A stretch of DNA of 64,000 nt from Microcaecilia unicolor (lineage: Eukaryota): the NCBI RefSeq assembly GCF_901765095.1, contig NC_044044.1, positions 26,632,132-26,696,131 on the forward strand, read 5' to 3'. Below are positions 11,801 through 63,660 of the stretch, piece after piece. A program made the translations under genes and the position numbers. Below the pieces are notes generated by a model. The model was not told where the DNA came from and searched no databases. It saw only the letters and a list, made by a program, of their open reading frames with translations. How positions within the stretch are numbered: position 1 is the stretch's first letter; every line of letters starts with the position of its first letter.

Positions 11801-11984
11801 TCTTTGTTTTCTCGTCAAATGTGCCAGCTCCCTTGTAGGCACCCACATAGCCAGTGTTACTGACCATTTCCTCACGCCCCGACATGCCTTTGCCCTTCCC
11901 ACTTTCATCAAATCTCTCCTTGTGCGAGCCAGTATACTTCGAAGTATCTGTGAGTCGGTCCACACCACCCACGGCCACTGCTTT
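11796..11984 (-). CDS. TPPP2: TPPP2-like terminal coding exon, encoding [62 protein letters not shown]
   Basis: The acceptor ttctttcag|AAA is in phase 0. The C-terminus is near-identical to the TPPP2 family as I recall it ([14 protein letters not shown](T/S)[13 protein letters not shown]...GREEM..NTGYV..YKG.GT.D.KTK). The assembled protein is 171 aa, against 170 aa for human TPPP2. Confidence 0.85.
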
Positions 11985-12039
11985 CTGAAAGAACACAGCA
12001 AAATGAAAAGTTAGTTACTGAGAAAACTAGCACTGGGAA

Positions 12040-12430
12040 ATAAAGATCAGTCTTGTAGAGGGTGCTCCCATGGAGATAGTGCCAGTAACTGTCCTGTCTA
12101 GGTCTAGTGTCTGCAACTCTTCTTCCTGTAGGGGGCACCCTGGGAACAGTGCCTCTAACTCTTCTCCCTCCTATAGGGGGAATTCCCAGGAACTTTATCC
12201 TCCTTTCTTCTGCACGGAGCACGTGTGAGGATAAGGTTCCTTCTGCAAAGGGCACCCCGGAGGACAATGACTTTAAATTGTTCTTTCTCTCCTGCAGGGG
12301 GAGACACCTATGGGGTGCTCCTCTAGGAACAGTGGCTGTAACTCTCCTACTTCTCCTGTAACTCTTCCCTATCCTGCAGGAGGCACCCAGGAATCTAATA
12401 TCTCTCCTTCCTCTTGGGGGGGATTGTGAT
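12040..12430. repeat. Tandem repeat of about 60 bp in TPPP2 intron 2 (cctgtagggggcaccctgggaacagtgcctctaactcttc...)
   Basis: About 6 degenerate copies are present. This accounts for the 260-aa minus-strand ORF 11908..12690, which merely reads through exon 2 into the intron. Confidence 0.7.
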
Positions 12431-12465
12431 GTCCTGGTGTTTGCATCTCCAGGTCCTGCTCTCAC

Positions 12466-12619
12466 CGTTATCCCTGTGCTGCTTGGTTGCCGGCCTATCA
12501 CCATCTTGCTAATGGATTCGAAGGCGTCCTGAGATGGCTGCCCTTTAAACCTCTTGGCCGATAGCTCCTTCAAGGCCGCCACAAACTCTTCAAAAGTGAG
12601 ATTCCGTGCACCCTTGGTC
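12466..12619 (-). CDS. TPPP2: TPPP2-like coding exon 2, encoding (K)TKGARNLTFEEFVAALKELSAKRFKGQPSQDAFESISKMVIGRQPSSTGIT
   Basis: The acceptor is ...tgtgctttcag|G and the donor is ACG|GTGAGA. The split Lys codon is completed from exon 1. The KVKxKxARxxTFxxF and KRFKG motifs are characteristic of the TPPP family. Confidence 0.8.
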
Positions 12620-13139
12620 CTGAAAGCACAGGGGAAGGGTGAAAGGGAGAAGAGAGACAAGATGGCGGCGCAGGTCTTAAGGGCAAGCATTTCTCTTCTT
12701 TAGGAGTTCACACCACATTGCCCCAGTTCCCTTCCCTCAAGACCCTCTGTCCTCCACTGGTATTGTACCTTTTTGACCTCTGGTCACTAGTGTGGTTAAG
12801 AAAAGGACACTGGCCTTCAAAAAGGAGGACAAAAGTGTGCATTGAATTAGCATAGATAATTTGCATATGCAAATGCATTTACATAGGTGCGACATTATGA
12901 ATCAAATCCAGGTCCTCTGTGTAAGCCAGTGGACCAGATTAAACTAGATGAGCTTGGGCCCCATTTTTGCATAGAATTCTTCTCTTCCTCCCTCCCCCAC
13001 CCCCAACATCCCTACCTAAAACAGAGGGCAGGGATTCTTTAAAATATGTTGACTGACTGGTGTGCTGGGGGGAATGGTAAATGTGTATTGGAGTGTCCCT
13101 CTTAATCAGGGGTCTCTGGCTGGAATTCACAACATCCAG

Positions 13140-21829: not shown

Positions 21830-22650
21830 TTACCGTTCTCATGATCATCATCACAATCACCACATTCACCATTCATCACCGTCACCATCATCACTATCAA
21901 AATCATAGTTACCATTCTCATGATCACACCACATTCACCATTCATCACCATCAACATCACTATCAAAATCATAGTTACCATTCTCATGATCACACCACAT
22001 TCACCATTCATCACCATCACCATCATCACTATCAAAATCATAGTTACCATTCTCATGATCACACCACATTCACCATTCATCACCATCAACATCACTATCA
22101 AAATCATAGTTACCATTCTCATGATCACACCACATTCACCATTCATCACCATCAACATCACTATCAAAATCATAGTTACCATTCTCATGATCACACCACA
22201 TTCACCATTCATCACCATCACCATCATCACTATCAAAATCATAGTTACCATTCTCATGATCACACCACATTCACCATTCATCACCATCAACATCACTATC
22301 AAAATCATAGTTACCATTCTCATGATCACACCACATTCACCATTCATCACCATCACCATCATCACTATCAAAATCATAGTTACCATTCTCATGATCACAC
22401 CACATTCACCATTCATCACCATCAACATCACTATCAAAATCATAGTTACCATTCTCATGATCACACCACATTCACCATTCATCACCATCACCATCATCAC
22501 TATCAAAATCATAGTTACCATTCTCATGATCACACCACATTCACCATTCATCACTATCAAAATCATAGTTACCATTCTCATGATCACACCACATTCACCA
22601 TTCATCACCATCAACATCACTATCAAAATCATAGTTACCATTCTCATGAT
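21830..22650. repeat. Minisatellite array A: alternating 66- and 69-bp units (caccattcatcaccatca(a/c)catcactatcaaaatcatagttaccattctcatgatcacaccacatt), about 12-13 copies
   Basis: The array is near-perfect. It produces His/Thr/Ile-rich ORFs of 277-320 aa on both strands (21733..22653, 21739..22701, 21920..22753), which are artefacts. Confidence 0.9.
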
Positions 22651-23289: not shown

Positions 23290-25160
23290 TGATCAAATGG
23301 AGATGGCGTTGATAGTGGTGATCAATAATGAGGTGATGGCAATGGTGGTTATGATGACGATGATGTTGGTGATGATAATCATGACAATTGTGATGGCAGT
23401 TATTATGATGTGTGGACGATGATGGTGGTAGTGGTAGAATGATTATTATGATGAAGATGATAATGGTGGTGGTTGCGATAATGATTATGATGTGGTAATG
23501 ATTATGGTGTGATGATGAAGATGGTATTGGTGGTGGTGGTGGTGATTGTGATGATGATACTGCTGGTGATGATGGTGGTGGTAGTGGTAATGATTATGGT
23601 GTGATGATGAAGATGGTATTGGTGGTGGTGGTGGTGATTGTGATGATGATACTGCTGGTGATGGTGGTGGTAGTGGTAATGATTATGGTGTGATGATGAA
23701 GATGGTATTGGTGGTGGTGGTGGTGATTGTGATGATGATACTGCTGGTGATGATGGTGGTGGTAGTGGTAATGATTATGGTGTGATGATGAAGATGGTAT
23801 TGGTGGTGGTGGTGGTGATTGTGATGATGATACTGCTGGTGATGATGGTGGTGGTAGTGGTAATGATTATGGTGTGATGATGAAGATGGTATTGGTGGTG
23901 GTGGTGGTGATTGTGATGATGATACTGCTGGTGATGATGGTGGTGGTAGTGGTAATGATTATGGTGTGATGATGAAGATGGTATTGGTGGTGGTGGTGGT
24001 GATTGTGATGATGATACTGCTGGTGATGGTGGTGGTAGTGGTAATGATTATGGTGTGATGATGAAGATGGTATTGGTGGTGGTGGTGGTGATTGTGATGA
24101 TGATACTGCTGGTGATGATGGTGGTGGTAGTGGTAATGATTATGGTGTGATGATGAAGATGGTATTGGTGGTGGTGGTGGTGGTGATTGTGATGATGATA
24201 CTGCTGGTGATGATGGTGGTGGTAGTGGTAATGATTATGGTGTGATGATGAAGATGGTATTGGTGGTGGTGGTGGTGATTGTGATGATGATACTGCTGGT
24301 GATGATGGTGGTGGTAGTGGTAATGATTATGGTGTGATGATGAAGATGGTATTGGTGGTGGTGGTGGTGATTGTGATGATGATACTGCTGGTGATGATGG
24401 TGGTGGTAGTGGTAATGATTATGGTGTGATGATGAAGATGGTATTGGTGGTGGTGGTGGTGATTGTGATGATGATACTGCTGGTGATGGTGGTGGTAGTG
24501 GTAATGATTATGGTGTGATGATGAAGATGGTATTGGTGGTGGTGGTGGTGATTGTGATGATGATACTGCTGGTGATGATGGTGGTGGTAGTGGTAATGAT
24601 TATGGTGTGATGATGAAGATGGTATTGGTGGTGGTGGTGGTGGTGATTGTGATGATGATACTGCTGGTGATGATGGTGGTGGTAGTGGTAATGATTATGG
24701 TGTGATGATGAAGATGGTATTGGTGGTGGTGGTGGTGATTGTGATGATGATACTGCTGGTGATGATGGTGGTGGTAGTGGTAATGATTATGGTGTGATGA
24801 TGAAGATGGTATTGGTGGTGGTGGTGGTGATTGTGATGATGATACTGCTGGTGATGATGGTGGTGGTAGTGGTAATGATTATGGTGTGATGATGAAGATG
24901 GTATTGGTGGTGGTGGTGGTGATTGTGATGATGATACTGCTGGTGATGATGGTGGTGGTAGTGGTAATGATTATGGTGTGATGATGAAGATGGTATTGGT
25001 GGTGGTGGTGGTGATTGTGATGATGATACTGCTGGTGATGATGGTGGTGGTAGTGGTAATGATTATGGTGTGATGATGAAGATGGTAATGGTGGTGGTGG
25101 TGAAGATTGTGATGATGATACTGGTGGTGGTGGTGGTGGTAGTGGTAATGGTTAAAATTT
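23290..25160. repeat. Minisatellite array B: about 92-bp units (ggtgtgatgatgaagatggtattggtggtggtggtggtgattgtgatgatgatactgctggtgatgatggtggtggtagtggtaatgattat), about 18 copies. It is related to array A but in reverse-complement orientation.
   Basis: The reverse complement of the array A unit (ggtgtgatcatgagaatggtaactatgatt...gatggtgatgaatggtg) aligns with the array B unit (ggtgtgatgatgaagatggtattggtgg...ggtgatgatggtgg). The two arrays are separated by about 640 bp of unique sequence. Confidence 0.85.
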
Positions 25161-26329
25161 GATGATGAAGCCTGAAAACTAGAAAGCTAGATATGTAATG
25201 TCAGTCAAGATCCTTCAATTCTTTCTTCCTCTTTAAAATTCCTTCCCTTCCCCAATATCATTGACTGCCCAGGAAAACTAGTTATGGATGCAGAATGGTT
25301 TTTACTTTTCTCTAGATTAAGAAAGAGAGAGAGAAAGAGAGAGTCAGTCAATGAGAAGAAAACTGGACTCAATGAACCTTCTGATGTTCTACTAACTTGA
25401 CAAACTCTTTGCACATCTACATAATAATGTGACTATGACTCTCTTTAAAAACTCACTGTGTTGCTCATTGAGGGCTTTGTGTGTTCAGCTCTACCACTTT
25501 CAACTCCCTTGTCCTTCTCAGCTCCTCATTGACGTTACCTACAACCAGCAAAGGGATGTTATAAACTACCCTAATTCTATTGTATCCCTACTTCTTTGAC
25601 CTCCTTGTTGCTCTCATTGCCCTCTGCCATCTCCCATCTCCATGCTTAAACCCTAGAGGCATATGTTAAACATCCAACAGCAGGTCAATGTCTAAAGTTA
25701 GACATCAATAAAAGTGGTCCAAGGCGAGAACAGCCTCACATCAATTTCATATATCTTCAGGTTGACTACACTGGGCATTCGATCTTATAATTTGTTGGAG
25801 GCAAGATCCTGGGTCAACCCTGCTTAAGTATCTAATCCAGCATTCAGACTGAGTACAGATGGGATTACTTTCCTTTTGAGCTGTCCGTTTTCTTCAGCTC
25901 CATTGGGTCTTCAGCTCAGTCAGAGCCAGGCCTGCGATCTAGTACCATAATACCTGGAGTTTATTCCCCTTATTTATATCTCTCCCACCAACACACCAAA
26001 TCTGGTCATTACAGGGACCATCCTTGGCCATGCTGGGTCAGATCTAAGGTCCACCAAGCCCATCCCCCTCCTTGACCTTGGCCAGTCTGCCGGGTCACTG
26101 CAAAGTACCTAGGTAACCCCAAAGAGGTGTCTTTTGCTCTACCTGCAGAAGGTTACATATGTAGCTTGCATAGAACTGCACCGTTGATACTATAGTAGGC
26201 TGGTTCTAGGAATCCACTGCTGTTCCAAAATCTGCTTTCAATACAAGTTAGCCCCATACCAGTGGTAGCCAATTTCCAGTCCTCATGGAGGCCAATCTAC
26301 ATGGGTATTCAGGATAGCCCTGATGAATA

Positions 26330-31129: not shown

Positions 31130-31690
31130 TTGCTGCCAGAGGAAAGATTGTTTCTAATCCCCGGCTCTGTCACTGACTCTCTTGTGTGACCTGCGGAAGT
31201 CACTTTATCTCTCTGTGTCTCAGTTTTAATCCTCGGCTCTGTCACTGACTCTCTGTATGTGACCTGGGGGAGTTACTTTATCTCCCTTTGCCTCAGTTCT
31301 AATCCCCGGCTCTGTCACTGACTCTCTTGTGTGACCTGGGGAAGTCACTTTATCTCTCTGTGACTCAGTTCTAATCCCCGGCTCTGTCACTGACTCTCTT
31401 GTGTGACCTGGGGAAGTCACTTTATCTCTCTGTGCCTCAGTTCTAATCCCCGGCTCTGTCACTGACTCTCTGACCTGGGGGAGTTACTTTATCTCCCTTT
31501 GCCTCAGTTCTAATCCCCGGCTCTGTCACTGACTCTCTTGTGTGACCTGGGGAAGTCACTTTATCTCCCTTTGCCTCAGTTCTAATCCCCGGCTCTGTCA
31601 CTGACTCTCTTGTGTGACCTGGGGAAGTCACTTTATCTCTCTGTGCCTGAGTTCTAATCCCTGAGTGTGATCCTGGGGGAGTCTCTCTTT
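31130..31690 (+). repeat. Tandem array of about 60-62 bp units, about 9 copies, derived from a MIR-type SINE core
   Basis: The unit is ccccggctctgtcactgactctcttgtgtgacctggggaagtcactttatctctctgtgcctcagttctaat. Compare the mammalian MIR core ...gtgaccttgggcaagtcacttaacctctctgagcctcagtttcc. Minus-strand ORFs (31226..31462, 31443..31631) with reiterated TEPGIRTE peptides are artefacts. Confidence 0.75.
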
Positions 31691-33216: not shown

Positions 33217-33439
33217 GGGATTGAAATCCCAACTTTATCTTTCCTTAAAAAAATACTCTGATTATTTACAGTCTTGTATTGGATGACATGTTCCAGCGTT
33301 GAATAGCAGGCTTTGTGTAATCCGAGTTTTAGTAGAATATAAAACTGCTCTAAAGATTATAAAGCAATGTCAGGTGATGTATGACAGAGCTGTGGCTGTA
33401 TCAGAAGCCCCCCCCCCCCCCATCTCCTCCACTGCCCTT

Positions 33440-34148
33440 TCTCCCCCCAGTATTGGGTGTTATTAGGAAAGGTATGGAAAACAGGTGTGAGGATGTTATA
33501 ATGCAGTTGTATCGCTCCATGGTGCGACCGCACCTTGAGTATTGTGTTCAATTCTGGTCGCCGCATCTCAAGAAAGATATAGTAGAATTGGAAAAGGTGC
33601 AGCGAAGGGCGACTAAAATGATAGCGGGGATGGGACGACTTCCCTATGAAGAAAGACTAAGGAGGCTAGGGCTATACAGCTTGGAGAAGAGACGGCTGAG
33701 GGGAGACATGATAGAGGTATATAAAATAATGAGTGGAGTGGAACAGGTGGATGTGAAGCGTCTGTTCACGCTTTCCAAAAATACTAGGACTAGGGGGCAT
33801 GCGATGAAACTACAGTGTAGTAAATTTAAAACAAATCGGAGAAATTTTTTCTTCACCCAACGCATAATTAAACCCTGGAATTCGTTGCCGGAGAACGTGG
33901 TGAAGGCGGTTAGCTTGGCAGAGTTTAAAAAGGGGTTAGACGGTTTCCTAAAGGACAAGTCCATAAACTACTACTAAATGGACTTGGTAAAAATCCACAA
34001 TTTCGGGAATAACTTGTATAAAATGTTTGTACGTTTGGGAAGCTTGCCAGGTGCCCTTGACCTGGATTGGCTGCTGTCGGGGACAGGATGCTGGGCTCGA
34101 TGGACCTTTGGTCTTTTCCCAGTATGGCATTACTTATGTACTTATATG
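33440..34148 (+). mobile_element. CR1 LINE, 5'-truncated 3' portion (ORF2 C-terminal region plus 3' UTR)
   Basis: ORF 33381..33977 reads ...[95 protein letters not shown]...[50 protein letters not shown], the canonical CR1 ORF2 C-terminus. The 3' UTR is ...ttgccaggtgcccttgacctggattggctgctgtcggggacaggatgctgggctcgatggacctttggtcttttcccagtatggcattacttatgtacttat. Confidence 0.85.
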
Positions 34149-34520: not shown

Positions 34521-35379
34521 GTGAAAGCTGAAAGAAATCCCACGTGGAACATAGTCAGCAGGTGATAGTGGGAAGTTGGAGAAGGTTTTGAGAAAGACCA
34601 GGGACACGAGAGGGTCGTGGGGGATAAAAACACTTTATTGTTGGTACTTGCAAAGATGCAAAACCCCGACAGGGCACCCGTGTCTCAGGGGTCATAAAGT
34701 GCTGTGGTTATCCAAAACAATGTATGAATCGAGCACTGAAGATCCGCTTTAGTGAATATTGGACTGGTCTTGAGAAAGTCCTTTGTAATTGTGATGCAGT
34801 TGTGACTTAACGCTATATAGAAAGGGCAGCTTCTCGGTGGTCTGTATTTTTAATAGTATCTGCACTTTTTATGTGTGTGCATTGTATGCGTGTGTGTTCT
34901 CCCTAGAACCTTAAAACATAAAAAAGAAAAATGTTCTGGTTGCCATGCACAAAACACAACAATCACAAAAACACAAGAATAGCCATATTGCGTCAGACCC
35001 AATGGTCCATCTAGCCCAGTATCCTGCTTCCAACAGTGGCCAATTCAGGTCACAGGTACCTCACAGAAACCCAAATAGTAGCAAGATTCCAGAACCTCAA
35101 AGAGTAACAAGATTCTAGAATCCCAAATAGTAGCAAGATTCCAGAACCTCAAAGAGTAACAAGATTCTAGAATCCCAAAGGAATAGCAAGATTCCGTGCA
35201 GAATCTCAAAGCGTAGCAACATTGTTCCTGGCAGAACCCAAATAGCAGCAACATTCCATGCTACCAATCCCAGGGTAAGCAGTGGCTTCCCCACGTCTGT
35301 CTCAATAGCAGACTGTGGACTTTTCCTCCAGGAACTTGTCCAAACCTTTTTTTAAACCCAGATATTCTAACTGCTGTTA

Positions 35380-35600: not shown

Positions 35601-36065
35601 GGATGGTCAAAGGTACCCAAGGGGTCACCAATACACTGTTCCCTTGGCCCCATTCAAGGACCCCAAAGTGATGATCCACCAATAGACTGTTCCCTTGGCC
35701 TCACTCAACGACCCCAAAGTGATGGCCCAAGGGACCACCAATAGACTTTTCTCTGGGCCTCACTCAAGGACCCCCAAAGTGTCTCTTACTGCTCATGCAA
35801 GTCAAGAGTATAACTCTCAAGTGATTATAAATAAACTCCCTCTCAATGTTGGCACCCACCAGCCAGTTAATTCCAGATGTTGGGTATTTAATACTATCTG
35901 AGTCCCCACTCTTGCCCTGTAGATGAAATAAACGTTATTGTCCAGTCTCCCCTAAAAGTAGTCACTTAAACAGCAAGCCAGAATGATCTGTGCATTTTCT
36001 TCTCTTACTTTCACTAGGTTTCCATTATTCCAGTGTCTTAATGTTGATCTCTCCCTCTGCAGATC

Positions 36066-38466
36066 ATGGCTTCAAGATCCCTGACCCCAAGCCCATCTTC
36101 TGACTCAGACAAAGAGCTTGCTGCTGGCATCACCCTTCCTCTAGGTGCTTCACACCAACAGGATCCTGTTACTCCTCCACCCCACATCTCTCTGCCTCCA
36201 GTGGAGAGAGACTGTCTTCATCTATTGCAGCAAGACTGTTCTTCCTTGATGCCAAGAGACTGCCTTTCTCCAGTTCAGAGAGACAATTTATCACCCAGAA
36301 ATAAATGTTCTTCATCTACATCAAAGGAAAACCCTTTATCTCAACTAGAAGAATGTTCTTCAGTTATTCCAAGAGACTCTCCTCCTTCAGTCCAGTGGGT
36401 TAGCCCTCCTCCAATGCCAGACTCTTTGTTATCCATACAGAGAGATCATTTATCTCCGGTAAAGATGGACAGTCCTGCAAGACACAGGAATTGTTCTTTG
36501 GCAATGCAAAGAGATTGTCCTTCTGTAATCCAAGAAAGCTGCACTTCCCTGCATCAAGTCTGTCTGTCTCCAGTGCGTAAAGGAAGTTCTCCTCCAAGAG
36601 ACTGCTCTTTATCAGTGGAGAGAAACTGTCCATCCCCAACACAGATGGAATGTCTTGGTCCAGTACAAAGAGATTGCTCTTTATCAATGGAGAGGGACTG
36701 TCCTTCCACACTACAGAGGGACTCACCTCTTATCCAGCATCTCAGTCCTTCCCCTCCCTGTCTGACGCCTCCCTCTCAGCCAGCCTCTCCTGACCATGCC
36801 TTTGTTGCACTGAACCCTGTTGCCACTGCTTCCCATGTTCCCGTGACCTCTCTACCCCTGGATGAGGTCCTCCATGAGCTGGCTTTCAACGGTGAGCTAG
36901 ACCTTCAACGCTACTCCAATGGCCATGCCCCATTAGCAACAGATGGAGCAGAAGAGCGTGGGCAGGAGGCACGTAAGTACCAGTGCCCAGTTTGTGGCAA
37001 GCGCTTCCGTTTCAACAGCATCCTCTCTCTGCACACACGCATTCACACTGGGGAGAAGCCCTTCCAGTGTCCCTACTGTGGTCACCAGGCCACTCAGAAA
37101 GGCAACCTGAAGATCCATCTGCGCACCCATCAACCTGGTGGTGACGAAGTGGTCAGTGAGGAGACCCGGTTGCTGCTGGAGCTGGAGGAGAGAGCACTCC
37201 TGAGAGAACAGCGCAACCAAGGAATGTCAAGACAGTGGAAGCACCCGTCATGGCTACTGGAGGTAAAGACACCGATGGTGGCCAAAGAGAAACCCGAGAT
37301 TCTGCCAGCTCCTCAAGACGAAGAAGAGGAGGAGGAAGAAGAGGAGGACGAGGAGGAGGAGGTGGTGCAAATCCCGATCCCTGTTACCCCTCCCTCACTA
37401 CCACCTCCGGGATTCCGCTGCCCATTCTGCAAAGGAAAATTCCGGAAGGCCCGGGAGCTGGAGAAGCACGTTCATATTCTCCATAAGCCCTACCGGTGCA
37501 CGATCTGTGGATTTGCAGCCACCCAGGAAGAAGGCCTGGCACGGCATGCAGAAGAAGTGCACCCAGTGAGGGAGGAGGAAGCAGTCGTTGAAGTTGGTGA
37601 GCCAGTGCAAGTAGCACCGCCGACTACACCGGTAAAGGCAGAACCACCAGTAGCAGAATTCCGTTGTGAGGTGTGCAGCCAAGCCTTCACTCAGTCGTGG
37701 TTCTTAAAGGGCCATATGAGGAAACACAAAGATTCTTTTGACCACAAGTGCCAAGTATGTGGGAGATGCTTCAAGGAGCCCTGGTTCCTGAAGAACCACA
37801 TGAAGGTCCACCTTAGTAAACTAGGGCTGAGGGGGGACAAGACCACAGCATCAGAGGTCTCCACATCCAGACCCAAGAAGGAGCAGGATCTTCTGGGATA
37901 TGACACCTTCTACTCAGCTTTCCTGCTTTCTGCCAGCCAGGAGAAGAGGGAGCAGCTGGTGAGTGTGGCAGAGAAGGGCTCCTTCTTGGGGTACCTCAGC
38001 CTACGGTCCCCCTCTGATGGGAGCTGCACAGAGAGGCTGCAGGCCACAGCCAGGGCCCTGGAGGTGGGCCAGGGGCAGGTTTGGCATCCACCAGGACTGG
38101 AGCCTTCAGAAGTCTGCTGGGTGAGCGGCAAGGGAAAGCAGAAGCGGAAGGGCCACTCCAGGAGGCCCAAGGACAAGAGATCCCAGGTAGGCCCGGCAGG
38201 ACTTTGTGATGGGCCTTCGAAAAATGAGGAATTTGGGGGCACTTGCCGCTGTCTTGAATGTGGTAGAACGTTTGGGAACTACCAGCAGTTGGAGGCCCAT
38301 ACTGCAATGGGTCATCATACCACCAGGGAGGAAGAGGAGTGGGCTGGGAGAGGGGCCTCAAGAACTTCCCATGCCAGTCACAACGGAGGCCACGGAGTGG
38401 GAGGCCACAGTGGAGCTGGAAGAGGAGCAGCGCATGGGGTGTCCCTGCAAGCAGGAAGATTCCCAG
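36066..38466 (+). CDS. ZNF219: ZNF219-like C2H2 zinc-finger protein, first coding exon. It contains the N-terminal repeat region, an ELDLQRYSNG block, six or seven fingers and an acidic tract.
   Basis: ATG at 36066 follows directly after an acceptor (ctgcag|atcATGG) and has a strong Kozak context. Diagnostic blocks match what I recall of human ZNF219: NGELDLQRYSNG, YQCPVCGKRFRFNSILSLH, ETRLLLELEERALLRE, FRCPFCKGKFRKARELEKHVHILH, and FRCEVCSQAFTQSWFLKGHMRKHKDSFDHKCQVCGRCFKEPWFLKNHMKVH. The donor CAG|GTATCA at 38466/38467 leaves phase 1, matching exon 2. An alternative donor at 38186/38187 is not phase-compatible. Confidence 0.85.
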
Positions 38467-38649
38467 GTATCAAAGCAGTCTGTCTGTCTGTCTGTCTTCA
38501 CTCTTCCTGTACCTCTCTGAATCTGTCTTCTGATTTCTCTTGTAATACTATTTCCTTGTACCATAATGGTGACATTATTTTCTGGGTTAAAATATTTATT
38601 TATTTATTTGGCATACTTGATACCGCCCAGTGGCCTACATAGAGACTTC

Positions 38650-39600
38650 TAAGGGGTTAACGATTAAAAAATAATAATATGTGTAGGGAGATAGGGATGA
38701 AAGAGGATCCAACCATAACTGAAAAATTTGAAAATGTGTGGGGTATCATAGATCTACAGGGGAGAGGGATATCTAAACTTTATGATTATATTAGGGGAGG
38801 GGACTTTGTAAAATTACCGTACATGAAGGCGTGGGAGAGGGATCTGGATACTGAATTGACTGAAATAGATTGGAGGCGAATTTGCTTAGAGGCCAAGAAA
38901 GCATCTATATGTGTTCTTATCAAGGAGAATGCATATAAGGTACTGAGCAGATGGTACTTCACACCGGATAAAATAAAAGCAATGTTTCCAGATGCCTCAG
39001 ACACATGTTGGAGATGTAAGAATGGGAGGGGAACATATTTCCATATTTGGTGGGAGTGTCCGGTACTACAGGTATTTTGGGGGGAAGTAACAGGATCACT
39101 AACTACAATGTTGGGCAGTACGGTTCCATGTGATCCTAAGTGGTGCTTGTTGGGTTGGGGCACTAGGAGGGGGAAGAGATGGCAATGCAGACTAAAACGA
39201 ATGGGTATGGCTGCGGCGAAAGCTATGGTGGCCTTAAATTGGAAACAAACAAAGGGCCCCACGGGGAAGGATTGGGTGGAGAGGCTTAAGATAATAGCGG
39301 CTATGGAAAAGATGACGGACAGGCGTAGAGGGAGATATTGTTCCACTGCTGACGAATGGACGCAATTGGAGACACTCTTTACTGGGAACATAGAGAGTAG
39401 GACTGTTTAAGCTACAGTTTTGAAGGGTGGGGGGGGAGGGAGGGGGGGGTTGGAGGGGGGGAGGGCGAAAACACTTGTGGAACTGGACTGAAGTTTACCT
39501 GGTTGGAAAGTTGGGGGAGTCATGGGCTCCAAACTGTTGTTACATTGATTGATGTTCAATAAAAATTTATAAATTAAAAAAAAATAATAATAATAATAAA
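38650..39600 (+). mobile_element. L1 LINE 3' fragment (ORF2 C-terminal Cys-rich domain, 3' UTR, AATAAA, poly-A), in ZNF219 intron 1
   Basis: ORF 38679..39410 contains ...CWRCKNGRGTYFHIWWECPVLQVFWGEV..., the L1 ORF2 C-terminal CWRC...HxxWxCPxLQxFW motif. It is followed by ...ttcaataaaaatttataaattaaaaaaaaataataataataaaat. Confidence 0.8.
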
Positions 39601-40181: not shown

Positions 40182-40313
40182 ATGAGAGTGAATCCCAGAG
40201 CAGAGGGTACGGATCAGATGGGAGCCGGATTTTCTCTGGCAAAGACTGTCCATACTGCGGCAAATCTTTCCGATCCTCACACCATTTAAAGGTGCATCTC
40301 CGAGTGCACACAG
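40182..40313 (+). CDS. ZNF219: ZNF219-like coding exon 2, encoding (D)[43 protein letters not shown](G)
   Basis: Acceptor tctcttgctccag|AT and donor ACAG|GTAAGAT. It matches the human ZNF219 segment [26 protein letters not shown]. The phase is consistent with both flanking exons. Confidence 0.85.
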
Positions 40314-41082: not shown

Positions 41083-42116
41083 GTGAGCGCCCCTATAAGT
41101 GCCCGCACTGCGACTATGCAGGCACACAGTCTGGATCACTGAAATACCACCTGCAGCGTCATCACCGTGAGCAGAAAGTGGTGGCCAGTGGACGGACAGC
41201 AGGCGTCAAAGTGCCCTCCCCCTACCAGCATACCTTGCTGGTGCAAACTGGGAGGTATCACAGCTTCTACCTCCCCCAGCACTGGGCAGCTGCACAACTC
41301 ACACCAGTGAGGGCTGTGGATGAGAAGCCCGGGAGGCAGAGGGTGCCCTCTACTGGTGCTAGCAGTCTTGGAGACGTTGGCCCAACTTTCTCAGACCTCG
41401 CCAAGGTCTTCCAGAATCTGTCGGAGAGCGAGAGCCACCTGAAGGAGGAGCCACTGCCACCATCATCCCTGGCAGTCCCTGTTTGTATGCTGGAAAAGCA
41501 AGAAGACAAGGTAGGAGGGAAAAGACGGAGACAGCCGCCACCACCCCAGCCCCAGCAAGAAGCAGATGTGCCCTCTCCACCTCCACCACGCGTTTCCCGG
41601 AGAAAACCGGCAAGCACAAGTCGTGTGATCACCAACGGGAAGCCAGACTTCGAGCCTCTAGATCTCTCGTGGCGGCCACCGGCATCACCAGGCATGGACA
41701 GCGAAGTCACCCTTCATCGTTGCCCCTTTTGCCCTTTTGCTACCTCCTCTCCAGAGCTGATGGCACTTCATCTGCAGGTTCACCATAGCCGAAGGTCCCT
41801 CAGGAAGGAGAGGACCCCAAGAGGGCCTATCAAAAATGACACTGATACCACCAATGCCTTCCTTGGAAAGGCAGGGACCCACCTGCTCTCTGGAGATTGT
41901 GAGATGGTGGAGGATCTGGGTCAAGGACTGAAGGAGGACGAGGAGGAGGAGGAGGAGGAAGGCGAGAGCCCAGAAGCATTGGAGGAGAGAGACATGGATG
42001 GGAAGGAGACGCCGAAAAAAGGAGCAAAGCAGGAGAATGGAGTTCAGGGTTACTTAAGCAGAAGCAACTCAGAAGAGGAGGAAGCAGAGGGGGAGAGGCT
42101 TCCTGAGCATCGGTAG
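41083..42116 (+). CDS. ZNF219: ZNF219-like terminal coding exon, encoding (G)ERPYKCPHCDYAGTQSGSLKYHLQRHHREQ...LHRCPFCPFATSSPELMALHLQVHHSRR...EHR*
   Basis: Acceptor tttcttccctag|GT. It matches the human ZNF219 C-terminal fingers (ERPYKCPHCDYAGTQSGSLKYHLQRHHRE; ALHRCLFCPFA..PELMALHLQVHHSRR). The stop codon TAG is at 42114-42116. An AATAAA lies about 470 nt downstream (about 42586). Confidence 0.85.
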
Positions 42117-53195: not shown

Positions 53196-53554
53196 CCATT
53201 CCCCTCTTTGACAGTATCACAATCCTGAGCTTCAAATCCGACTCTGCTGACTTTCAATTCACAGATTGCAGTTATTAAACCCTCTTATTTTGCACTCGAA
53301 CAAATTAATTCTTCCTTGACAACTTGGAAACCTTGGTTTTTGCTCTGATTCCAATTCGTATTGACTATTGCAATGCTGTTCACTTTGGCTCAAATCAGTC
53401 CTCCATAAACTGCAGCTCCTCCAGTGTCCAGATTATTTACTGGAACAATCCGAATGGATCATGTTACTCCGATCCCTACTTGACAACACTGATTTCTAAT
53501 CTCTTTCAGAACAAAACAACAAAAAAAAAAATCAATCAACTAGTTTTAGCGGAG

Positions 53555-53995
53555 TGGAGTGGAACAGGAGTGGAACAGGTGGATGTGAAGCGTCTGTTCA
53601 CACGTTCCAAAAATACTAGGACTAGGGGGCATGCGATGAAACTACAGTGTAGTAAATTTAAAACAAATCGGAGAAAATTTTTCTTCACCCAACGTGTAAT
53701 TAAACTCTGGAATTCGTTGCCGGAGAAAGTGGTGAAGGCGGTTAGCTTAGCAGAGTTTAAAAAGGGGTTGGACGGTTTCCTAAAGGACAAGTCCATAAAC
53801 CGCTACTAAACGGACTTGGAAAACTCCAAAATTCCAGGAATAACATGTATAGAATGTTTGTACGTTTGGGAAGCTCGCCAGGTGCCCTTGGCCTGGATTG
53901 GCCACTGTCGTGGACAGGATGCTGGGCTCGATGGACCCTTGGTCTTTTCCCAGTATGGCATTACTTATGTACTTATGTTCCTTTCCACCCATCAG
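53555..53995 (+). mobile_element. CR1 LINE 3' fragment
   Basis: ORF 53324..53809 ends ...[80 protein letters not shown]. It is followed by the CR1 3' UTR ...gccaggtgcccttggcctggattggccactgtcgtggacaggatgctgggctcgatggacccttggtcttttcccagtatggcattacttatgtacttatg. Confidence 0.85.
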
Positions 53996-55551: not shown

Positions 55552-57277
55552 CCATCCATCGCCAGCACCAAGCGATCCTGAAGGAAAGGAATGCTACCCT
55601 AGCACTAACTTCTTTTCATGGCTGGACGTTGGAGAAGACCTTCCCACTGGACAAACATTTTACAGAGCTGCTCATCATCCCCTCCCTGAGGTACCAGGAG
55701 CAGGTGCAGCATGAGCTCCTTGCCCGTGGACGTGAACACGTTGAATGGCGCAAGCAAACCCTGCGCCGTGAGCTGGAGAAGGTCCGCCATCATGAGATCT
55801 TTGGCACCAGCTTTGGCAAGTGCACTCGCTGCCTTTATGCTGTGATCAGCGGTGTGGCTGGGATTGGCAAGACCACCCTGGTACAGAAAATAGTCCACGA
55901 CTGGGCAGTGGGCAAAATTTATGGGCAGTTCCACTTCCTTTTCCAGTTCAAGTTCCGGGAGCTCAACATCTACCAGGACAGGACCAGTCTCAAGCAGATC
56001 ATCCTAGACTCCTACCCCTACCTAGAGAAAGATCTCAAGAAGGTCTTGGCAAATACCAATAGGATCTTGTTAATTTTTGACGGACTAGATGAATTCCGGG
56101 AGCCGATAATTTTCCCTGACATTCAGGCTAAATCTCCAAACTCACAATCAAAGGGGGCCTCACATCTTTACCCCGAGAGCTGGTGCTCCATTCCGGACAT
56201 TATACGGGCTCTCTTTCAAGGGCAGATGTTGCCGGATTGTTCCGTGCTGGTGACCACACGGCCCACAGCCCTGGAGTCCTTGCAGATGGCACCTGTCCAC
56301 CTCTATGCTGAGATACTGGGCTTCTCTGATGCACAGATCAAAGACTACTTCTTGAAGTTCAACAGTGACACCAAGGTGTCCTTGGAGATGTTAACCTATG
56401 TGGAGGACAATGCCATCCTGTATACTATGTGCTACAACCCATCATACTGTTGGGTAATTTGTTCCTCCCTGGAAGCAACCTTCACCTCACCAAGAGTACG
56501 TGATTGGAGCCCACCCAAGACAATCACCCAGCTATATGCCAACTATATTCATAACATCCTGAAGAATCATTCCAGAGAAGCAGAGGAGCCAAGACAGCTA
56601 CTTCTGAAGACTGGAGAGATGGCCTACATGGGGGTGGCAGAGAAGGTCATTGTCTTCGGTGACCACCACTTCCATCGGTATGGCCTGCAGCCCAGCAACT
56701 TCCTCTCGGGTTTCCTCATGCAGATTCTACAGAAGGAGAACTCCTTGAAGGATGTGGTATACTCTTTCTTTCATCTCACAGTGCAGGAATTCCTGGCGGC
56801 CCTTGCCAAATTCTTCCAAACGCCTACTCCTAAACTGTCCCAGCTGTTGGATGAAACCAGCACCTCCAGGGATGGCCGGTATGAAATCTTCCTCCAGTTC
56901 ATGGCTGGCCTCTCCTGCCCAGCCACCACAGCCCAACTGAAGGACCTGATTGGAGAAGTTCCCCAAGGGAACGTCTGTAAAGTGGTAGACTGGATCAAAG
57001 AGAGGTTTGAAAGTGCCCAGGGCCATAAGATCCAGCTGCTGAACACATTACACTATCTGTTTGAGGCACAGAACAAGGCCCTGGTGCAGGAGACTATGGG
57101 CCAGGTCAGACAGGTGGATTTCAGCTTCCAGGTCATGTCACCTGTAGATTGCTACGTTCTGGCTGTGGTGCTTGGGCCCTGTCAGCAGCTGCAGAACCTC
57201 CATCTTTTCAACTGTTCGATCGAGTCCTGGGGAATGAAGAGCTTGAAGAGCGTGCTACACAAGTGTGTGACTGTAAG
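55552..57277 (+). CDS. NLRP-like gene, large NACHT (NOD) domain exon. It carries a Walker A motif (GVAGIGKTTL), a Walker B region (ILLIFDGLDEF), sensor 1 (LVTTRP), and winged-helix/HD (EILGFSDAQIKDYFLKF, ILYTMCYNPSYCWVICSSL).
   Basis: The supplied ORF 55629..57281 actually begins at a TTG, not an ATG. The frame is open from 55527. I place the acceptor at ...tttttcctttcttctgatgaag|CC, which is phase-compatible with the PYD exon. 55603 is an alternative with the same phase. The donor is AAG|GTAAGG at 57277/57278. The motif order and sequences resemble NLRP3/NLRP12 NACHT domains. Confidence 0.85.
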
Positions 57278-58299
57278 GTAAGGAACGCTGTAAGATTTGA
57301 AACAGTCCAGCTGACCCTTTTGTGTAAAAAGCAGAAGAGCGTTAAATCCATCCACTCCATGACTAAAATCTGCCCTTCTCTATAAGCTAGGGTCTTTTAA
57401 CTTCCCTTTTCAGAACCTAGGGCCTACAATTGACCCTTCTAAAAGCCTGAACCTAAGCTGCCCACCTCCCTTATCAACCAAGGGCCTAAAAACTCTCTCC
57501 CTCTTCAGAACTCGGAATCCAAACTTCTCCCTCTCCAAAGCCATAGTCTAAACAATCTCCCTCCCGTCTTCTGAAACCTGGCCCGCTCCTGAGTGTTGGT
57601 GTATGGAAAACCTGTGAGTATGAGGAAAGGTTATGATGGAGAGTGGAACAGGATAAGGGGCTTTATCAGAGGGGAACAATCTATTCTTCAAGCACCTGCC
57701 AAGGCGACAGTAATAAGTGTTTATTACTGCATAGATCAAGATATGTTGCTGGGGAACAAAGCATCCAAAAATGTCCATTACCAGGAAACAAACTCAGACT
57801 GGAGGGGGGGGGGGGGCTTTCTCTGTTTGTCTGTTTGAAAACATATAAGGGCAGGTCTGCTTTTACCCTACAGACACAGATTCATGCTGGAGGATAGGGC
57901 AGGTCTCCTTTAAACACTGCATCTGCTAATCTAATCCCGCAGAAAAGACAGTTCTCCTTTAACAATGAGCCTAGTTTCAAGGCAGGGCAGGTCTCTTTTG
58001 ACAGCATAGGGGCGATAAGAAACCATGTGCTTTATCACACCAACCTTTGAACCCTTATCCACAGTAAAGACCAGGAAGAACCAGCCTGAACCAAAACCAA
58101 TCAGGAGCCTTGGAAGGGATCACAGAGCACTCTTAAGCCCATCTGATTGGCTCCTGAGAATTAACTTTCTATGATGTCATAAAGCCTTTTTCATTCCTGC
58201 ATTCTGACTGGTTTTGAAGGTGTTAGTCATAATTCACTGGATTGGGTTTATAAAGCCTGAGGGTCATTTGCCTTTGGGTCACACACAGACATTGACAGA

Positions 58300-61049: not shown

Positions 61050-63660
61050 TGTTTTCAAGTAGATGTTTAAGCTCATAGGTTTGAGTGTTTATGGAGGGAC
61101 AGTTGTGTTTTTAGCTGTTTATAGGAGTTTTGTTTTGGGTTGGGGTTTATGTGGGTACTTGTATATAGAGATATGTATATGTTTTAACGAGGGTGTTTAA
61201 GCTCATAGAATCGAGTGTTTATGAAGGGACAGTTGTGTTTTTAGCTGTTTATAGGGTTTTTTTGGGGGGGGAGGGGGTGTTTTTACGTGGGGGTTTGTAT
61301 ATAGAGATATGTATATGTTTTAATGAGGGTGTTTAAGCTCATAGAATCGAGTGTTTATGAAGGGACAGTTGTGTTTTTAGCTGTTTATAGGGTTTTTTTT
61401 GGGGGGGAGGGGGTGTTTTTACGTGGGTGTTTGTATATAGAGATATGTATATGTTTTAACGAGGGTGTTTAAGCTCATAGAATCGAGTGTTTATGAAGGG
61501 ACAGTTGTGTTTTTATCTGTTTATAGGGTTTTTTGGGGGGAGGGGGTGTTTTTACGTGGGGGTTTGTATATAGAGATATGTATATGTTTTAATGAGGGTG
61601 TTTAAGCTCATAGAATCGAGTGTTTATGAAGGGACAGTTGTGTTTTTAGCTGTTTATAGGGTTTTTTTGGGGGGGGGGGGGGGTGTTTTTACATGGGTAT
61701 TTGTATATAGAGATATGTATATGTTTTAACGAGGGTGTTTAAGCTCATAGAATCGAGTGTTTATGAAGGGACAGTTGTGTTTTTAGCTGTTTATAGGGGG
61801 TTTTTTGGGGGGGGAGGGGGTGTTTTACGTGGGTGTTTGTATATAGAGATATGTATATGTTTTAATGAGGGTGTTTAAGCTCATAGAATCGAGTGTTTAT
61901 GAAGGGACAGTTGTGTTTTTAGCTGTTTATAGGGTTTTTTTGGGGGGGAGGGGGTGTTTTAAGTGGGTGTTGTATATAGATATGTATATGTTTTAACGAG
62001 GGTGTTTAAGCTCATAGAATCGAGTGTTTATGAAGGGACAGTTGTGTTTATAGCTGTTTATAGGGTTTTTTTTGGGGGGGGAGGGGGTGTTTTTACGTGG
62101 GTGTTTGTATATAGAGATATGTATATGTTTTTATGTGGGTGTTTAAGCTCATAGAATCGAGTGTTTATGAAGGGACAGTTGTGTTTTTAGCTGTTTATAG
62201 GGTTTTTTTGGGGGGGGGAGGGGGTGTTTTTACATGGGTGTTTGTATATAGAGATATGTATATGTTTTAACGAGGGTGTTTAAGCTCATAGAATCGAGTG
62301 TTTATGAAGGGACAGTTGTGTTTTTAGCTGTTTATAGGGTTTTTTTTTGGGGGGGGGGAGGGGGTGTTTTTACGTGGGTGTTTGTATATAGAGATATGTA
62401 TATGTTTTAATGAGGGTGTTTAAGCTCATAGAATCGAGTGTTTATGAAGGGACAGTTGTGTTTTTAGCTGTTTATAGGGTTTTTTTTGGGGGGGAGGGGG
62501 TGTTTTTACGTGGGTGTTTGTATATAGAGATATGTATATGTTTTAACGAGGGTGTTTAAGCTCATAGAATCGAGTGTTTATGAAGGGACAGTTGTGTTTT
62601 TAGCTGTTTATAGGGTTTTTTTTGGGGGGGGGAGGGGGTGTTTTTACGTGGGTGTTTGTATATAGAGATATGTATATGTTTTAACGAGGGTGTTTAAGCT
62701 CATAGAATCGAGTGTTTATGAAGGGACAGTTGTGTTTTTATCTGTTTATAGGGTTTTTTGGGGGGGAGGGGGTGTTTTTACGTGGGGGTTTGTATATAGA
62801 GATATGTATATGTTTAACGAGGGTGTTTAAGCTCATAGAATCGAGTGTTTATGAAGGGACAGTTGTGTTTTTAGCTGTTTATAGGGTTTTTTTTGGGGGG
62901 GGAGGGGGTGTTTTTACATGGGTATTTGTATATAGAGATATGTATATGTTTTAACGAGGGTGTTTAAGCTCATAGAATCGAGTGTTTATGAAGGGACAGT
63001 TGTGTTTTTAGCTGTTTATAGGGGTTTTTTTGGGGGGGGGGGGGGTTGTTTTTACGTGGGTGTTTGTATATAGAGATATGTATATGTTTTAATGAGGGTG
63101 TTTAAGCTCATAGAATCGAGTGTTTATGAAGGGACAGTTGTGTTTTTAGCTGTTTATAGGGTTTTTTTTTTGGGGGGAGGGGGTGTTTTTACGTGGGTGT
63201 TTGTATATAGATATGTATATGTTTTAACGAGGGTGTTTAAGCTCATAGAATCGAGTGTTTATGAAGGGACAGTTGTGTTTTTAGCTGTTTATAGGGTTTT
63301 TTTTGGGGGGGAGGGGGTGTTTTTACGTGGGTGTTTGTATATAGAGATATGTATATGTTTTTATGTGGGTGTTTAAGCTCATAGAATCGAGTGTTTATGA
63401 AGGGACAGTTGTGTTTTTAGCTGTTTATAGGGTTTTTTTTGGGGGGGGAGGGGGTGTTTTTACGTGGGTGTTTGTATATAGAGATATGTATATGTTTTAA
63501 CGAGGGTGTTTAAGCTCATAGAATCGAGTGTTTATGAAGGGACAGTTGTGTTTTTAGCTGTTTATAGGGTTTTTTTTGGGGGGGGGAGGGGGTGTTTTTA
63601 CGTGGGTGTTTGTATATAGAGATATGTATATGTTTTTATGTGGGTGTTTAAGCTGATAGA
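61050..63660 (+). repeat. Satellite-like tandem array: about 137-bp unit, about 19 copies, about 2.6 kb, each unit containing a T(n)G(n)AGGGGG run. It fills most of the last NLRP-like intron.
   Basis: The unit is gagggtgtttaagctcatagaatcgagtgtttatgaagggacagttgtgtttttagctgtttatagggtttttttgggggggagggggtgtttttacgtgggtgtttgtatatagagatatgtatatgttttaac. Copy starts are spaced 135-140 bp apart from about 61190 to about 63640. A degenerate leader lies at 60880-61190. Confidence 0.9.

What the first reader, a model, noticed from the sequence alone, without database searches (positions are those of the whole stretch)
36066..36960. Lineage-specific repetitive N-terminal extension in the ZNF219-like protein
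Upstream of the conserved ELDLQRYSNG block, which sits near residue 25 in human ZNF219, the ORF carries about 270 extra residues. They are built from about 15 degenerate tandem 12-aa (36-nt) Cys/Ser/Pro-rich units (…PVQRDCSLSMERDCPSTLQRDSP…). The ATG at 36066 has a strong Kozak context and lies directly after a splice acceptor. The DNA-level periodicity also produces a spurious 108-aa antisense ORF (36400..36726). This could be a real coding repeat expansion giving a new low-complexity domain. Alternatively the true start could be a downstream Met.
Basis: seen in the sequence. Interest (0 to 1): 0.55.

Follow-up and report, generated by a model that had tools for sequence, protein, structure and literature searches.

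The report
Octapeptide repeat extension of caecilian ZNF219
The caecilian copy of the transcription-factor gene ZNF219 starts with about 270 extra, probably unstructured amino acids, most of them about 23 in-frame copies of a degenerate 8-residue (24-base) unit; this is an ordinary kind of coding repeat expansion, and the public gene model largely leaves it out.

Summary
The window is the Microcaecilia unicolor ZNF219 locus. RefSeq XP_030042515.1 can be rebuilt exactly from it.

**What is confirmed**
- The open reading frame from ATG 36066 is real.
- It places 276 residues in front of ELDLQRYSNG.

- The repeat period is 24 nt (8 aa), not 36 nt (12 aa). Lag 24 gives z=+10; lag 36 gives z=-4.5.
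- There are about 23 units (36198-36752), consensus P-[VM]-Q-R-D-C-[PS]-S, not about 15.

**Is it coding? Probably yes.**
- Frame 0 has no stops over 272 codons. The other two forward frames have 9 and 7.
- Every change in unit length is a multiple of 3.
- Two independent salamander mRNA assemblies carry an in-frame Ser/Pro-rich extension of about 250 aa in the same position. The axolotl RefSeq model also has one.

So a long extension is shared by amphibians, not unique to caecilians. Only the RDC-type octapeptide array has no detectable relative.

**Caveats**
- There are no caecilian transcript data.
- RefSeq starts at Met194 (36645).
- Codon usage in the extension is not gene-like (GC3 0.375 against 0.597).

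Overall this is an ordinary, fast-evolving disordered region plus a likely annotation error.

The parts
36043..36062 (+). Putative 3' splice site: pyrimidine-rich tract (74% Y) ending in CAG. It contains the in-frame TGA at 36045-47 that closes the frame upstream.
   Evidence: Not verified by transcripts. A second acceptor-like site ends at 36017.
36066..36068 (+). Candidate start codon (atcATGg; A at -3, G at +4). It is the first in-frame ATG after the TGA.
   Evidence: MA.RS..P resembles the second Met of the salamander proteins (DMAHRSSSP), but the alignment is not significant (z=1.6).
36066..36197 (+). Non-repeat leader, aa 1-44 (Ser/Pro-rich).
36198..36752 (+). Array of about 23 degenerate octapeptide units (24 nt; a few units of 21 or 18 nt). 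Consensus PMQRDCPS / CCAATGCAGAGAGACTGTCCTTCT. Mean identity to the consensus is 67%.
36596..36721 (+). Youngest visible duplication: two 54-nt copies (36596-36649 and 36668-36721), 83% identical, 72 nt (3 units) apart.
36645..36647 (+). Met194 ATG, the start of RefSeq XP_030042515.1. It lies inside unit PTQMECLG, and 'CAG ATG GAA' is a variant of the unit's 'CAG AGA GAC'.
36753..36881 (+). Non-repeat linker, aa 230-272, ending in PLDEVLHEL (a predicted short helix). 36759-36881 is skipped by the RefSeq model, with non-canonical TG..TG boundaries.
   Evidence: tblastn of proteins from other species aligns in frame across it: one row, the third query block and probably axolotl P0003 although query names were not printed, starts at 36702.
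36882..36923 (+). Conserved ZNF219/ZNF536 block AFNGELDLQRYSNG.
36975..37130 (+). First pair of C2H2 zinc fingers (aa 304-355).
   Evidence: Pfam; pLDDT 59-79.
36063..38466 (+). First coding exon of ZNF219 as inferred here. The GT donor follows 38466.
40182..40313 (+). Second coding exon (AG/GT flanks).
41083..42116 (+). Last coding exon, including the stop codon. It carries the PLDLS motif (KPDFEPLDLSW).
36400..36726 (-). Antisense ORF of 108 aa with a GTG start. It is a by-product of the repeat, since that frame has 8 stops over 36066-36900.

Best explanation
The stretch 36066-36881 is the translated N-terminal part of the first coding exon of Microcaecilia unicolor ZNF219. Most of it (36198-36752) is a coding minisatellite.

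**How it arose (inferred)**
- A 24-nt unit encoding P-[VM]-Q-R-D-C-[PS]-S was amplified head to tail, in steps of one to three units, by replication slippage or unequal exchange.
- The copies then diverged to about 67% identity to the consensus.
- Selection kept the reading frame open.

**What it produces (predicted)**
- A Ser/Pro/Leu/Cys-rich, intrinsically disordered tail of about 270 residues in front of the conserved AFNGELDLQRYSNG block and the nine-finger DNA-binding body.

**Where it came from**
- It sits where salamanders also carry a fast-evolving Ser/Pro-rich region of about 250 aa.
- The caecilian array is therefore best read as a lineage-specific remodelling of an older amphibian N-terminal disordered region, not a de novo addition.

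**What it does (inference only)**
- A flexible, multivalent regulatory or docking region with 17 Ser/Thr-Pro sites and 15 Cys.
- It plays no part in DNA recognition.

**Status of each step**
- Shown: the ORF, the period, the unit map, frame-specific openness, and the salamander transcripts.
- Inferred: translation in the caecilian, the start at 36066, the amplification mechanism, disorder and function.
For: **Frame-specific openness**
- Frame 0 has 0 stops over 36066-36881. Frames +1 and +2 have 9 and 7.
- Upstream of Met194 alone the counts are 0 against 6 and 4.
- Inside the array they are 0 against 4 and 3, although the consensus unit is open in all three forward frames (read from the consensus). 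Frames +1/+2 therefore serve as an internal control; by my own Poisson estimate from their counts, P(0) is about 0.03 for the array and about 3e-4 for the whole region.
- Star-like neutral divergence to the observed identity keeps frame 0 open in only 0.13% of simulations.

**Indels in multiples of 3**
- All unit-length changes are -3 or -6 nt.
- All 15 start-to-start spacings within repeat families D1-D6 are multiples of 3.
- The off-period autocorrelation peaks (45, 66, 69, 90, 114, 117) are all multiples of 3.

**Start codon and periodicity**
- ATG 36066 is the first in-frame ATG after TGA 36045. It has A at -3 and G at +4, 3 nt after an acceptor-like CAG.
- Periodicity is as strong at protein level (lag 8, z=8.8) as at DNA level.
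- Codon position 3 is the least conserved between units (0.46 against 0.50 and 0.57). The pN/pS ratio between units is lowest in frame 0 (0.66 against 0.72 and 0.80). This signal is weak.

**Salamander evidence**
- Two independent RNA-seq assemblies (L001 from SRR10305544, L002 from SRR5127389) are spliced ZNF219 mRNAs.
- Their ORF runs from an ATG preceded by an in-frame stop (checked in L001), through about 249 Ser/Pro-rich residues, into LQELAFNGELDLQQYFNG.
- Axolotl RefSeq P0003 has the same architecture.

**Links between caecilian and other species**
- The caecilian unit profile is enriched in the axolotl extension (z=3.7, 0/1000 shuffles), the salamander extension (z=2.1) and the sturgeon extension (z=2.8). 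It is not enriched in bichir or in a negative control.
- The extension evolves fast even between salamanders: 50% identity against 80% for the rest of the protein. The lack of alignable similarity to the caecilian is therefore expected.

**Structure and domains**
- AF2 in single-sequence mode gives pLDDT 27-46 and no secondary structure for aa 1-300, apart from a helix at 265-275. The two fingers in the same run reach 59-79.
- No Pfam domain is found before aa 304.
Against: - No caecilian transcript, CAGE, ribosome-profiling or peptide data could be consulted.
- The only public model, XP_030042515.1, starts at Met194 (36645).
- Codon usage of the extension does not resemble the rest of the gene. 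GC3 is 0.375 against 0.597. A codon-usage log-likelihood does not prefer frame 0 over frame 2. Synonymous-codon preference is not shared.
- Selection signals between units are weak.
- No significant residue-level similarity to the salamander extensions (z=0.6 and 2.6).
- No hit in 1.84 billion representative proteins except the species' own model and one unrelated repeat protein.
- No other caecilian sequence could be obtained, so conservation of the frame across species is untested.
- The openness statistics assume a simple history of the array. Hierarchical duplication makes them less extreme.
Confidence: 0.68

Rival explanations
1. Translation starts at a downstream Met: Met194 at 36645 as in RefSeq, or Met134 at 36465, which also has A at -3 and G at +4. 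The stretch 36066-36644 would then be 5' UTR or intron that happens to be a 24-nt minisatellite. Only the last 4-10 units would be protein.
For: - XP_030042515.1 begins MECLG at 36645.
- The extension has intron-like GC3 (0.375) and no shared codon preference with the rest of the gene.
- The repeat is full of acceptor-like YnCAG sites.
- The window is rich in non-coding minisatellites.
Against: - 193 codons upstream of Met194 are stop-free, while the two other forward frames carry 6 and 4 stops.
- All indels are in frame.
- The AG before 36645 has a weak pyrimidine tract, below the 0.68 cut-off used.
- Met194 has C at -3.
- The same RefSeq model also skips 123 nt with non-canonical TG..TG boundaries, removing residues (PLDEVLHEL) that resemble salamander PFDDERLQEL. 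The model is therefore demonstrably imperfect here.
- Salamander mRNAs translate the equivalent region.
Confidence: 0.22
2. Both forms exist. Alternative promoters or acceptors would give a long isoform starting at 36066 and a short isoform starting at or near Met194.
For: - Several acceptor-like sites and in-frame ATGs lie inside the repeat.
- A chimpanzee ZNF219 isoform with a different N-terminus is on record (P0153), so N-terminal isoform variation occurs in this gene.
Against: No direct evidence for any isoform in the caecilian. This reading does not conflict with the best explanation; it adds to it.
Confidence: 0.07
3. The array is a neutral, non-functional sequence, translated or not. 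Its open frame would be a chance survival of a recently expanded stop-free unit.
For: - The consensus unit is stop-free in all three forward frames (read from the consensus).
- The pN/pS ratio between units is only mildly below 1 (0.66).
- The youngest duplicate pair shows 3 synonymous and 6 non-synonymous changes (my own reading of the pair).
Against: - The units are old (mean 67% identity to the consensus, about 51% pairwise).
- Frames +1 and +2 have already acquired 4 and 3 stops in the array, and 9 and 7 in the whole region, whereas frame 0 has none.
- In-frame-only indels are not expected under neutrality.
Confidence: 0.03

Closest known systems
ZNF219 of salamanders (Ambystoma mexicanum RefSeq model P0003; Logan mRNA contigs L001 and L002)
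   Same: - Same gene: the rest of the protein is 57% identical.
- Same position of the extension, directly before (L)AFNGELDLQ.
- Similar length (249-252 aa against 273-276) and similar Ser+Pro content (0.33-0.36 against 0.32).
- Weak periodicity of about 8.5 aa, and enrichment of L-Q-x-[DE]-[SC]-P-S-like octapeptides.
   Different: - No significant residue-level alignment.
- Salamanders lack the strong 8-aa period and the R-D-C core.
- They have fewer Cys (7-8 against 15).
- They have seven additional residues (MRIPRQD / MKIFIQD) before the Met that resembles caecilian Met1.
Amniote ZNF219 (human protein of 723 aa with nine C2H2 fingers, PMC3805895; sauropsid models P0006-P0020)
   Same: - The AFNGELDLQRYSNG block.
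- The arrangement of paired fingers.
- The acidic tract.
- The PLDLS motif near the C-terminus.
   Different: Only 36-55 residues precede the block in sauropsids and about 20 in hominids (P0153, plus my recollection of the canonical human sequence). There is no repeat array.
ZNF219/ZNF219L of ray-finned fish (bichir P0021, sturgeon P0040 and P0059; zebrafish ZNF219L, first finger at aa 155, PMC3805895)
   Same: An intermediate-length (about 145-157 aa) Ser/Pro/Leu-rich pre-motif region. The sturgeon region shows some unit-like octapeptides (z=2.8).
   Different: About half the length. No 24-nt periodicity was tested at DNA level. Bichir shows no enrichment.
Coding minisatellites / tandem-repeat low-complexity regions in eukaryotic regulatory proteins (general class; from established knowledge)
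   Same: In-frame head-to-tail units, rapid turnover, predicted disorder, and a position outside the folded domains.
   Different: This particular unit (PMQRDCPS) matches no Pfam repeat family and no homologous protein.
P0121, an unnamed 1073-aa protein with about 14 perfect SGMSRDCS repeats
   Same: An 8-residue unit containing S-R-D-C-S. It was the only foreign hit of the extension (E=4.8e-4).
   Different: The protein is otherwise unrelated: no zinc fingers, and the repeats are internal and perfect. This is most likely convergence of low-complexity sequence.

Membership tests
ZNF219 orthologue (ZNF219/ZNF536 family of C2H2 proteins) | The best hits are ZNF219 of other vertebrates, ahead of the paralogue ZNF536. 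| tested here: met
   The top hits are ZNF219 of Microcaecilia (100% in shared blocks), Ambystoma, Latimeria, turtles and squamates. ZNF536, including Microcaecilia's own P0033, scores lower.
ZNF219 orthologue (ZNF219/ZNF536 family of C2H2 proteins) | A conserved (A/S)FNGELDLQ(R/Q)(Y/F)xNG block immediately before the first finger pair, plus separated paired C2H2 fingers. | tested here: met
   The block is at aa 273-286 and the fingers start at aa 304.
ZNF219 orthologue (ZNF219/ZNF536 family of C2H2 proteins) | A C-terminal PLDLS-type motif. That this is the CtBP-binding consensus is from my own knowledge; binding was not tested. | tested here: met
   KPDFEPLDLSW is in exon 41083-42116. The function was not tested.
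ZNF219 orthologue (ZNF219/ZNF536 family of C2H2 proteins) | Conserved synteny. | not tested
   A TPPP-like ORF (11908-12690, minus strand) and an NLR-like ORF (55629-57281) flank the gene. Neither was identified by a search.
   Lag 36 z=-4.3 to -4.5 and lag 12 aa z=-0.8. TRF never reports period 36.
Tandem repeat with period 24 nt / 8 aa (coding minisatellite) | Head-to-tail copies at a constant period, above chance. | tested here: met
   Lags 24/48/72 give z=10.2/7.3/6.1. Protein lags 8/16/24 give z=8.8/6.0/4.4. Relaxed TRF reports period 24 with 22-23 copies. A 17-nt core of the unit (3 mismatches allowed) occurs only in the array: 4 hits against 0.17 expected.
Tandem repeat with period 24 nt / 8 aa (coding minisatellite) | The reading frame is maintained through the array. 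| tested here: met
   0 stops in frame 0 against 4 and 3 in the other forward frames. All length changes are multiples of 3.
Tandem repeat with period 24 nt / 8 aa (coding minisatellite) | The array is actually transcribed and translated in this species. | not testable with these tools
   No caecilian transcript or peptide data are reachable. The exact-match look-ups found nothing.
Intrinsically disordered low-complexity region | Biased composition, no predicted fold, no domain match. | tested here: met
   S 17%, P 15%, L 11%. AF2 pLDDT is 27-46 with no secondary structure, while the fingers in the same model fold. No Pfam hit before aa 304. These are predictions only.
Any curated protein repeat family (Pfam) | A significant match of aa 1-300 to a repeat model. 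| tested here: not met
   no family matches before residue 304.

The most novel reading that the evidence does not exclude
The R-D-C octapeptide array, with about one Cys and one acidic/basic pair every 8 residues in about 23 copies, is a caecilian-specific functional module. It might be a redox- or metal-sensitive platform, or a multivalent docking platform, that changes how ZNF219 is regulated or what it recruits. On this reading it is not merely tolerated low-complexity sequence.
Probability: 0.08. Interest if true: 0.5.

Novelty: new member of a known kind. Interest (0 to 1): 0.25.

Why it matters
**Annotation.** The public model of caecilian ZNF219 (XP_030042515.1) appears to lack about 193 N-terminal residues. 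It also omits 41 internal residues through a non-canonical 'intron'. A 1188-aa product is more consistent with the sequence and with salamander mRNAs.

**Evolution.** This is a clean example of a fast-evolving disordered N-terminus of a conserved transcription factor being rebuilt by in-frame amplification of a 24-nt unit. The length of the region changes several-fold across vertebrates: sharks 55-79 aa, basal ray-finned fish about 150, amphibians about 250-275, amniotes about 20-55.

It opens no long-standing question, and a specialist would not find it very surprising.

Tried and rejected
1. **TRF at default penalties** found nothing in the region. The array is too diverged, and only relaxed penalties detect it.
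2. **Homology search with the extension alone** gave no hit at E<=1e-3 and did not even return the species' own model. It is insensitive to this composition.
3. **Third homology search (aa 120-345)**, aimed at other caecilians, was swamped by generic multi-finger proteins.
4. **Full HMMER scan of 1.84 billion representatives with aa 1-300** returned only P0001 and the unrelated repeat protein P0121.
5. **Exact-match look-ups**
   - XP_030042515.1 and the 858-aa ORF: not on record in the contig look-up.
   - Axolotl gene: too long (349 kb) for its DNA to be fetched.
6. **Smith-Waterman with shuffles, caecilian against salamander extensions,** was not significant. Residue-level homology is therefore not claimed.
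7. **Codon-usage and coding-potential test** was uninformative or mildly negative.
8. **dN/dS between the two salamander contigs** was impossible because they are the same species (1 difference in 249 codons).
9. **blastn of the salamander 5' UTR and extension against the window** gave nothing beyond the conserved block.
10. **Self-blast of the extension against the rest of the window** found no dispersed copies, so a transposon origin is not supported.
11. **A canonical GT-AG reading of the 123-nt RefSeq skip** was sought by hand from the sequences printed. No alternative boundary reproduces the protein.
Full report
**What the locus is.** The window is vertebrate DNA.
- The ORF 36066..38642 finds ZNF219 of Microcaecilia unicolor as its best relative, followed by ZNF219 of salamanders, coelacanth, turtles and squamates. 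The paralogue ZNF536 scores lower.
- That protein (P0001 = XP_030042515.1) can be rebuilt residue for residue from the window. The pieces are 36645-36758, 36882-38466, 40182-40313 and 41083-42116.
- The two real introns have GT-AG ends.
- The window is therefore the M. unicolor ZNF219 locus, or something indistinguishable from it in coding sequence.

**Check of the observation: what holds.**
- The long N-terminal ORF is real. ELDLQRYSNG starts at residue 277.
- The ATG at 36066 has A at -3 and G at +4. It lies 3 nt after a CAG with a 74% pyrimidine tract and 21 nt after an in-frame TGA.
- The 108-aa antisense ORF exists.

**Check of the observation: what is wrong.** The description of the repeat is wrong.
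- Autocorrelation against codon shuffles gives z=+10.2 at lag 24 nt, +7.3 at 48 and +6.1 at 72. It gives -4.5 at 36 and -6.8 at 12.
- At protein level lag 8 gives z=+8.8. Both halves of the region show the signal.
- A profile scan maps about 23 consecutive units from aa 45 to 229 (36198-36752). Most are 8 aa; a few are 7 or 6.
- The consensus is PMQRDCPS / CCAATGCAGAGAGACTGTCCTTCT, with mean identity to the consensus of 67%.
- TRF misses the array at default penalties. With relaxed penalties it reports period 24 and 22-23 copies.
- The youngest visible event is a 3-unit (72-nt) duplication, 83% identical over 54 nt.
- A 17-nt core of the unit occurs nowhere else in the window.

**Is it coding? 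Evidence for.**
- Frame 0 has no stop in 272 codons, while frames +1 and +2 have 9 and 7. Upstream of Met194 the counts are 0 against 6 and 4.
- The consensus unit is stop-free in all three forward frames (read from the consensus). The 4 and 3 stops that frames +1 and +2 acquired inside the array are therefore an internal measure of decay. By my own Poisson estimate from those counts, frame 0 escaping is about a 3% event for the array and about 3e-4 for the whole extension.
- A star-like neutral simulation gives 0.13%. It overstates the case if duplications were hierarchical.
- Every unit-length change is -3 or -6 nt. All 15 repeat-family spacings in D1-D6 are multiples of 3.
- Codon position 3 is the least conserved between units, and pN/pS is lowest in frame 0 (0.66). 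These effects are small.

**Is it coding? Evidence against.**
- The extension's codon usage does not look like the rest of the gene. GC3 is 0.375 against 0.597, and frame 0 is not preferred in a codon-usage log-likelihood.
- This is what a copied 24-nt unit would give, but it is not positive evidence.
- The RefSeq model starts at Met194 (36645).
- That ATG lies inside a unit (PTQMECLG), has C at -3, and follows a poor pyrimidine tract.
- The same model removes 36759-36881 with TG..TG boundaries that cannot be shifted to GT-AG (read by hand from the boundary sequences). This deletes PLDEVLHEL, which resembles salamander PFDDERLQEL, and proteins of other species align in frame across it by tblastn. 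I therefore regard the model as unreliable at its 5' end.

**Comparative evidence.**
- A Logan contig (L001, SRR10305544, 6377 nt) is a spliced salamander ZNF219 mRNA.
- Its ORF of 1256 aa starts at an ATG preceded by an in-frame TAG. About 249 Ser/Pro-rich residues lie before LQELAFNGELDLQQYFNG.
- A second run (L002, SRR5127389) gives the same mRNA, with 1 substitution in the extension.
- The axolotl RefSeq protein has the same layout.
- A long extension is therefore transcribed and in frame in salamanders. The position of the motif varies widely:

| Group | Motif position (residue) |
|---|---|
| Sharks | 56-79 |
| Sturgeon, bichir | 145-157 |
| Amphibians | 250-277 |
| Sauropsids | 37-56 |

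. In zebrafish ZNF219L the first finger is at residue 155 (PMC3805895).
- The caecilian and salamander extensions do not align above composition-matched shuffles (z=0.6 and 2.6).
- Even two salamanders share only 50% identity there, against 80% elsewhere. Loss of signal over the caecilian-salamander distance is therefore expected.
- A profile of the caecilian unit is enriched in the axolotl (z=3.7), salamander (z=2.1) and sturgeon (z=2.8) extensions. It is not enriched in bichir or a negative control.
- Salamanders show a weak periodicity of about 8.5 aa.
- I read this as an old, fast-evolving disordered region from which one octapeptide was amplified in the caecilian lineage. That reading is suggestive, not proven.

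**Nature of the product.**
- There is no Pfam domain before residue 304.
- No relatives appear in 1.84 billion representative proteins except P0001 and an unrelated protein with perfect SGMSRDCS repeats.
- AF2 in single-sequence mode gives pLDDT 27-46 and no secondary structure for aa 1-300, apart from a short helix at 265-275. The two fingers in the same model reach 59-79.
- Composition is S 46, P 41, L 31, C 15 of 272 residues, with 17 Ser/Thr-Pro sites.
- The most likely role is a flexible regulatory or docking tail. No specific function can be assigned.

**Verdict.** The period and copy number were wrong, and 'lineage-specific' applies only to the RDC array, not to the existence of a long N-terminal region. 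It is an ordinary kind of feature, a coding minisatellite in a disordered region. Its main practical value is correcting a gene model.

Noticed in passing
window 36759-36881: RefSeq XP_030042515.1 omits these 123 nt (41 aa) in frame. The boundaries are TG..TG and cannot be shifted to GT-AG. The cause is unexplained: a model artefact, a haplotype difference or a rare non-canonical event.
   Followed up: partly
window 38679-39410 (+), inside the first ZNF219 intron: A 243-aa ORF that by eye looks like the C-terminal part of a LINE-1-type ORF2 (…CWRCKNGRGTYFHIWWECPVLQVFW…). No family search was run on it.
   Followed up: no
window 33381-33977 (+) and 53324-53809 (+): Two ORFs share a near-identical tail (…[56 protein letters not shown]). 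They look like copies of one retrotransposon family, resembling a CR1/L2-type reverse-transcriptase C-terminus by eye.
   Followed up: no
window 21858-22650, 23492-25170, 31152-31661, 61064-63660: Four large non-coding minisatellites: 66 nt x12, 92 nt x18, 72 nt x7 and 136 nt x19. The first gives long His/Thr/Ile-rich ORFs on both strands. They account for the GC-skew spikes at 24-26 kb and 60-64 kb.
   Followed up: no
window 55629-57281 (+): A 550-aa ORF with a P-loop (GIGKTTLVQK) and features that by eye resemble a NACHT/NLR exon. Probably a neighbouring NLR-family gene.
   Followed up: no
window 11908-12690 (-): The ORF contains …NLTFEEFVAALKELSAKRFKG…, which I recall as TPPP-family sequence. 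If correct, it fits the mammalian neighbourhood of ZNF219 (TPPP2). Not tested.
   Followed up: no
window 35064-35195 and 35626-35724: Two short tandem repeats (26/52 nt x5, 51 nt x1.9) lie just upstream of the first coding exon.
   Followed up: no
window 37315-37362: A GAG/GAA-rich tract encoding a poly-Glu/Asp run (EEEEEEEEEDEEEE). Sauropsid ZNF219 models have an acidic tract at the same place, so this low-complexity element is conserved.
   Followed up: partly
P0121 (protein from the representative library), residues about 620-735: An unrelated 1073-aa protein carries about 14 perfect SGMSRDCS octapeptide repeats. It was the only foreign hit of the caecilian extension (E=4.8e-4). Its origin is unknown.
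   Followed up: partly
L001 446-451: The salamander ZNF219 mRNA has a minimal upstream ORF (ATG TAA) that overlaps the main start codon (catgtaATGagg).
   Followed up: no
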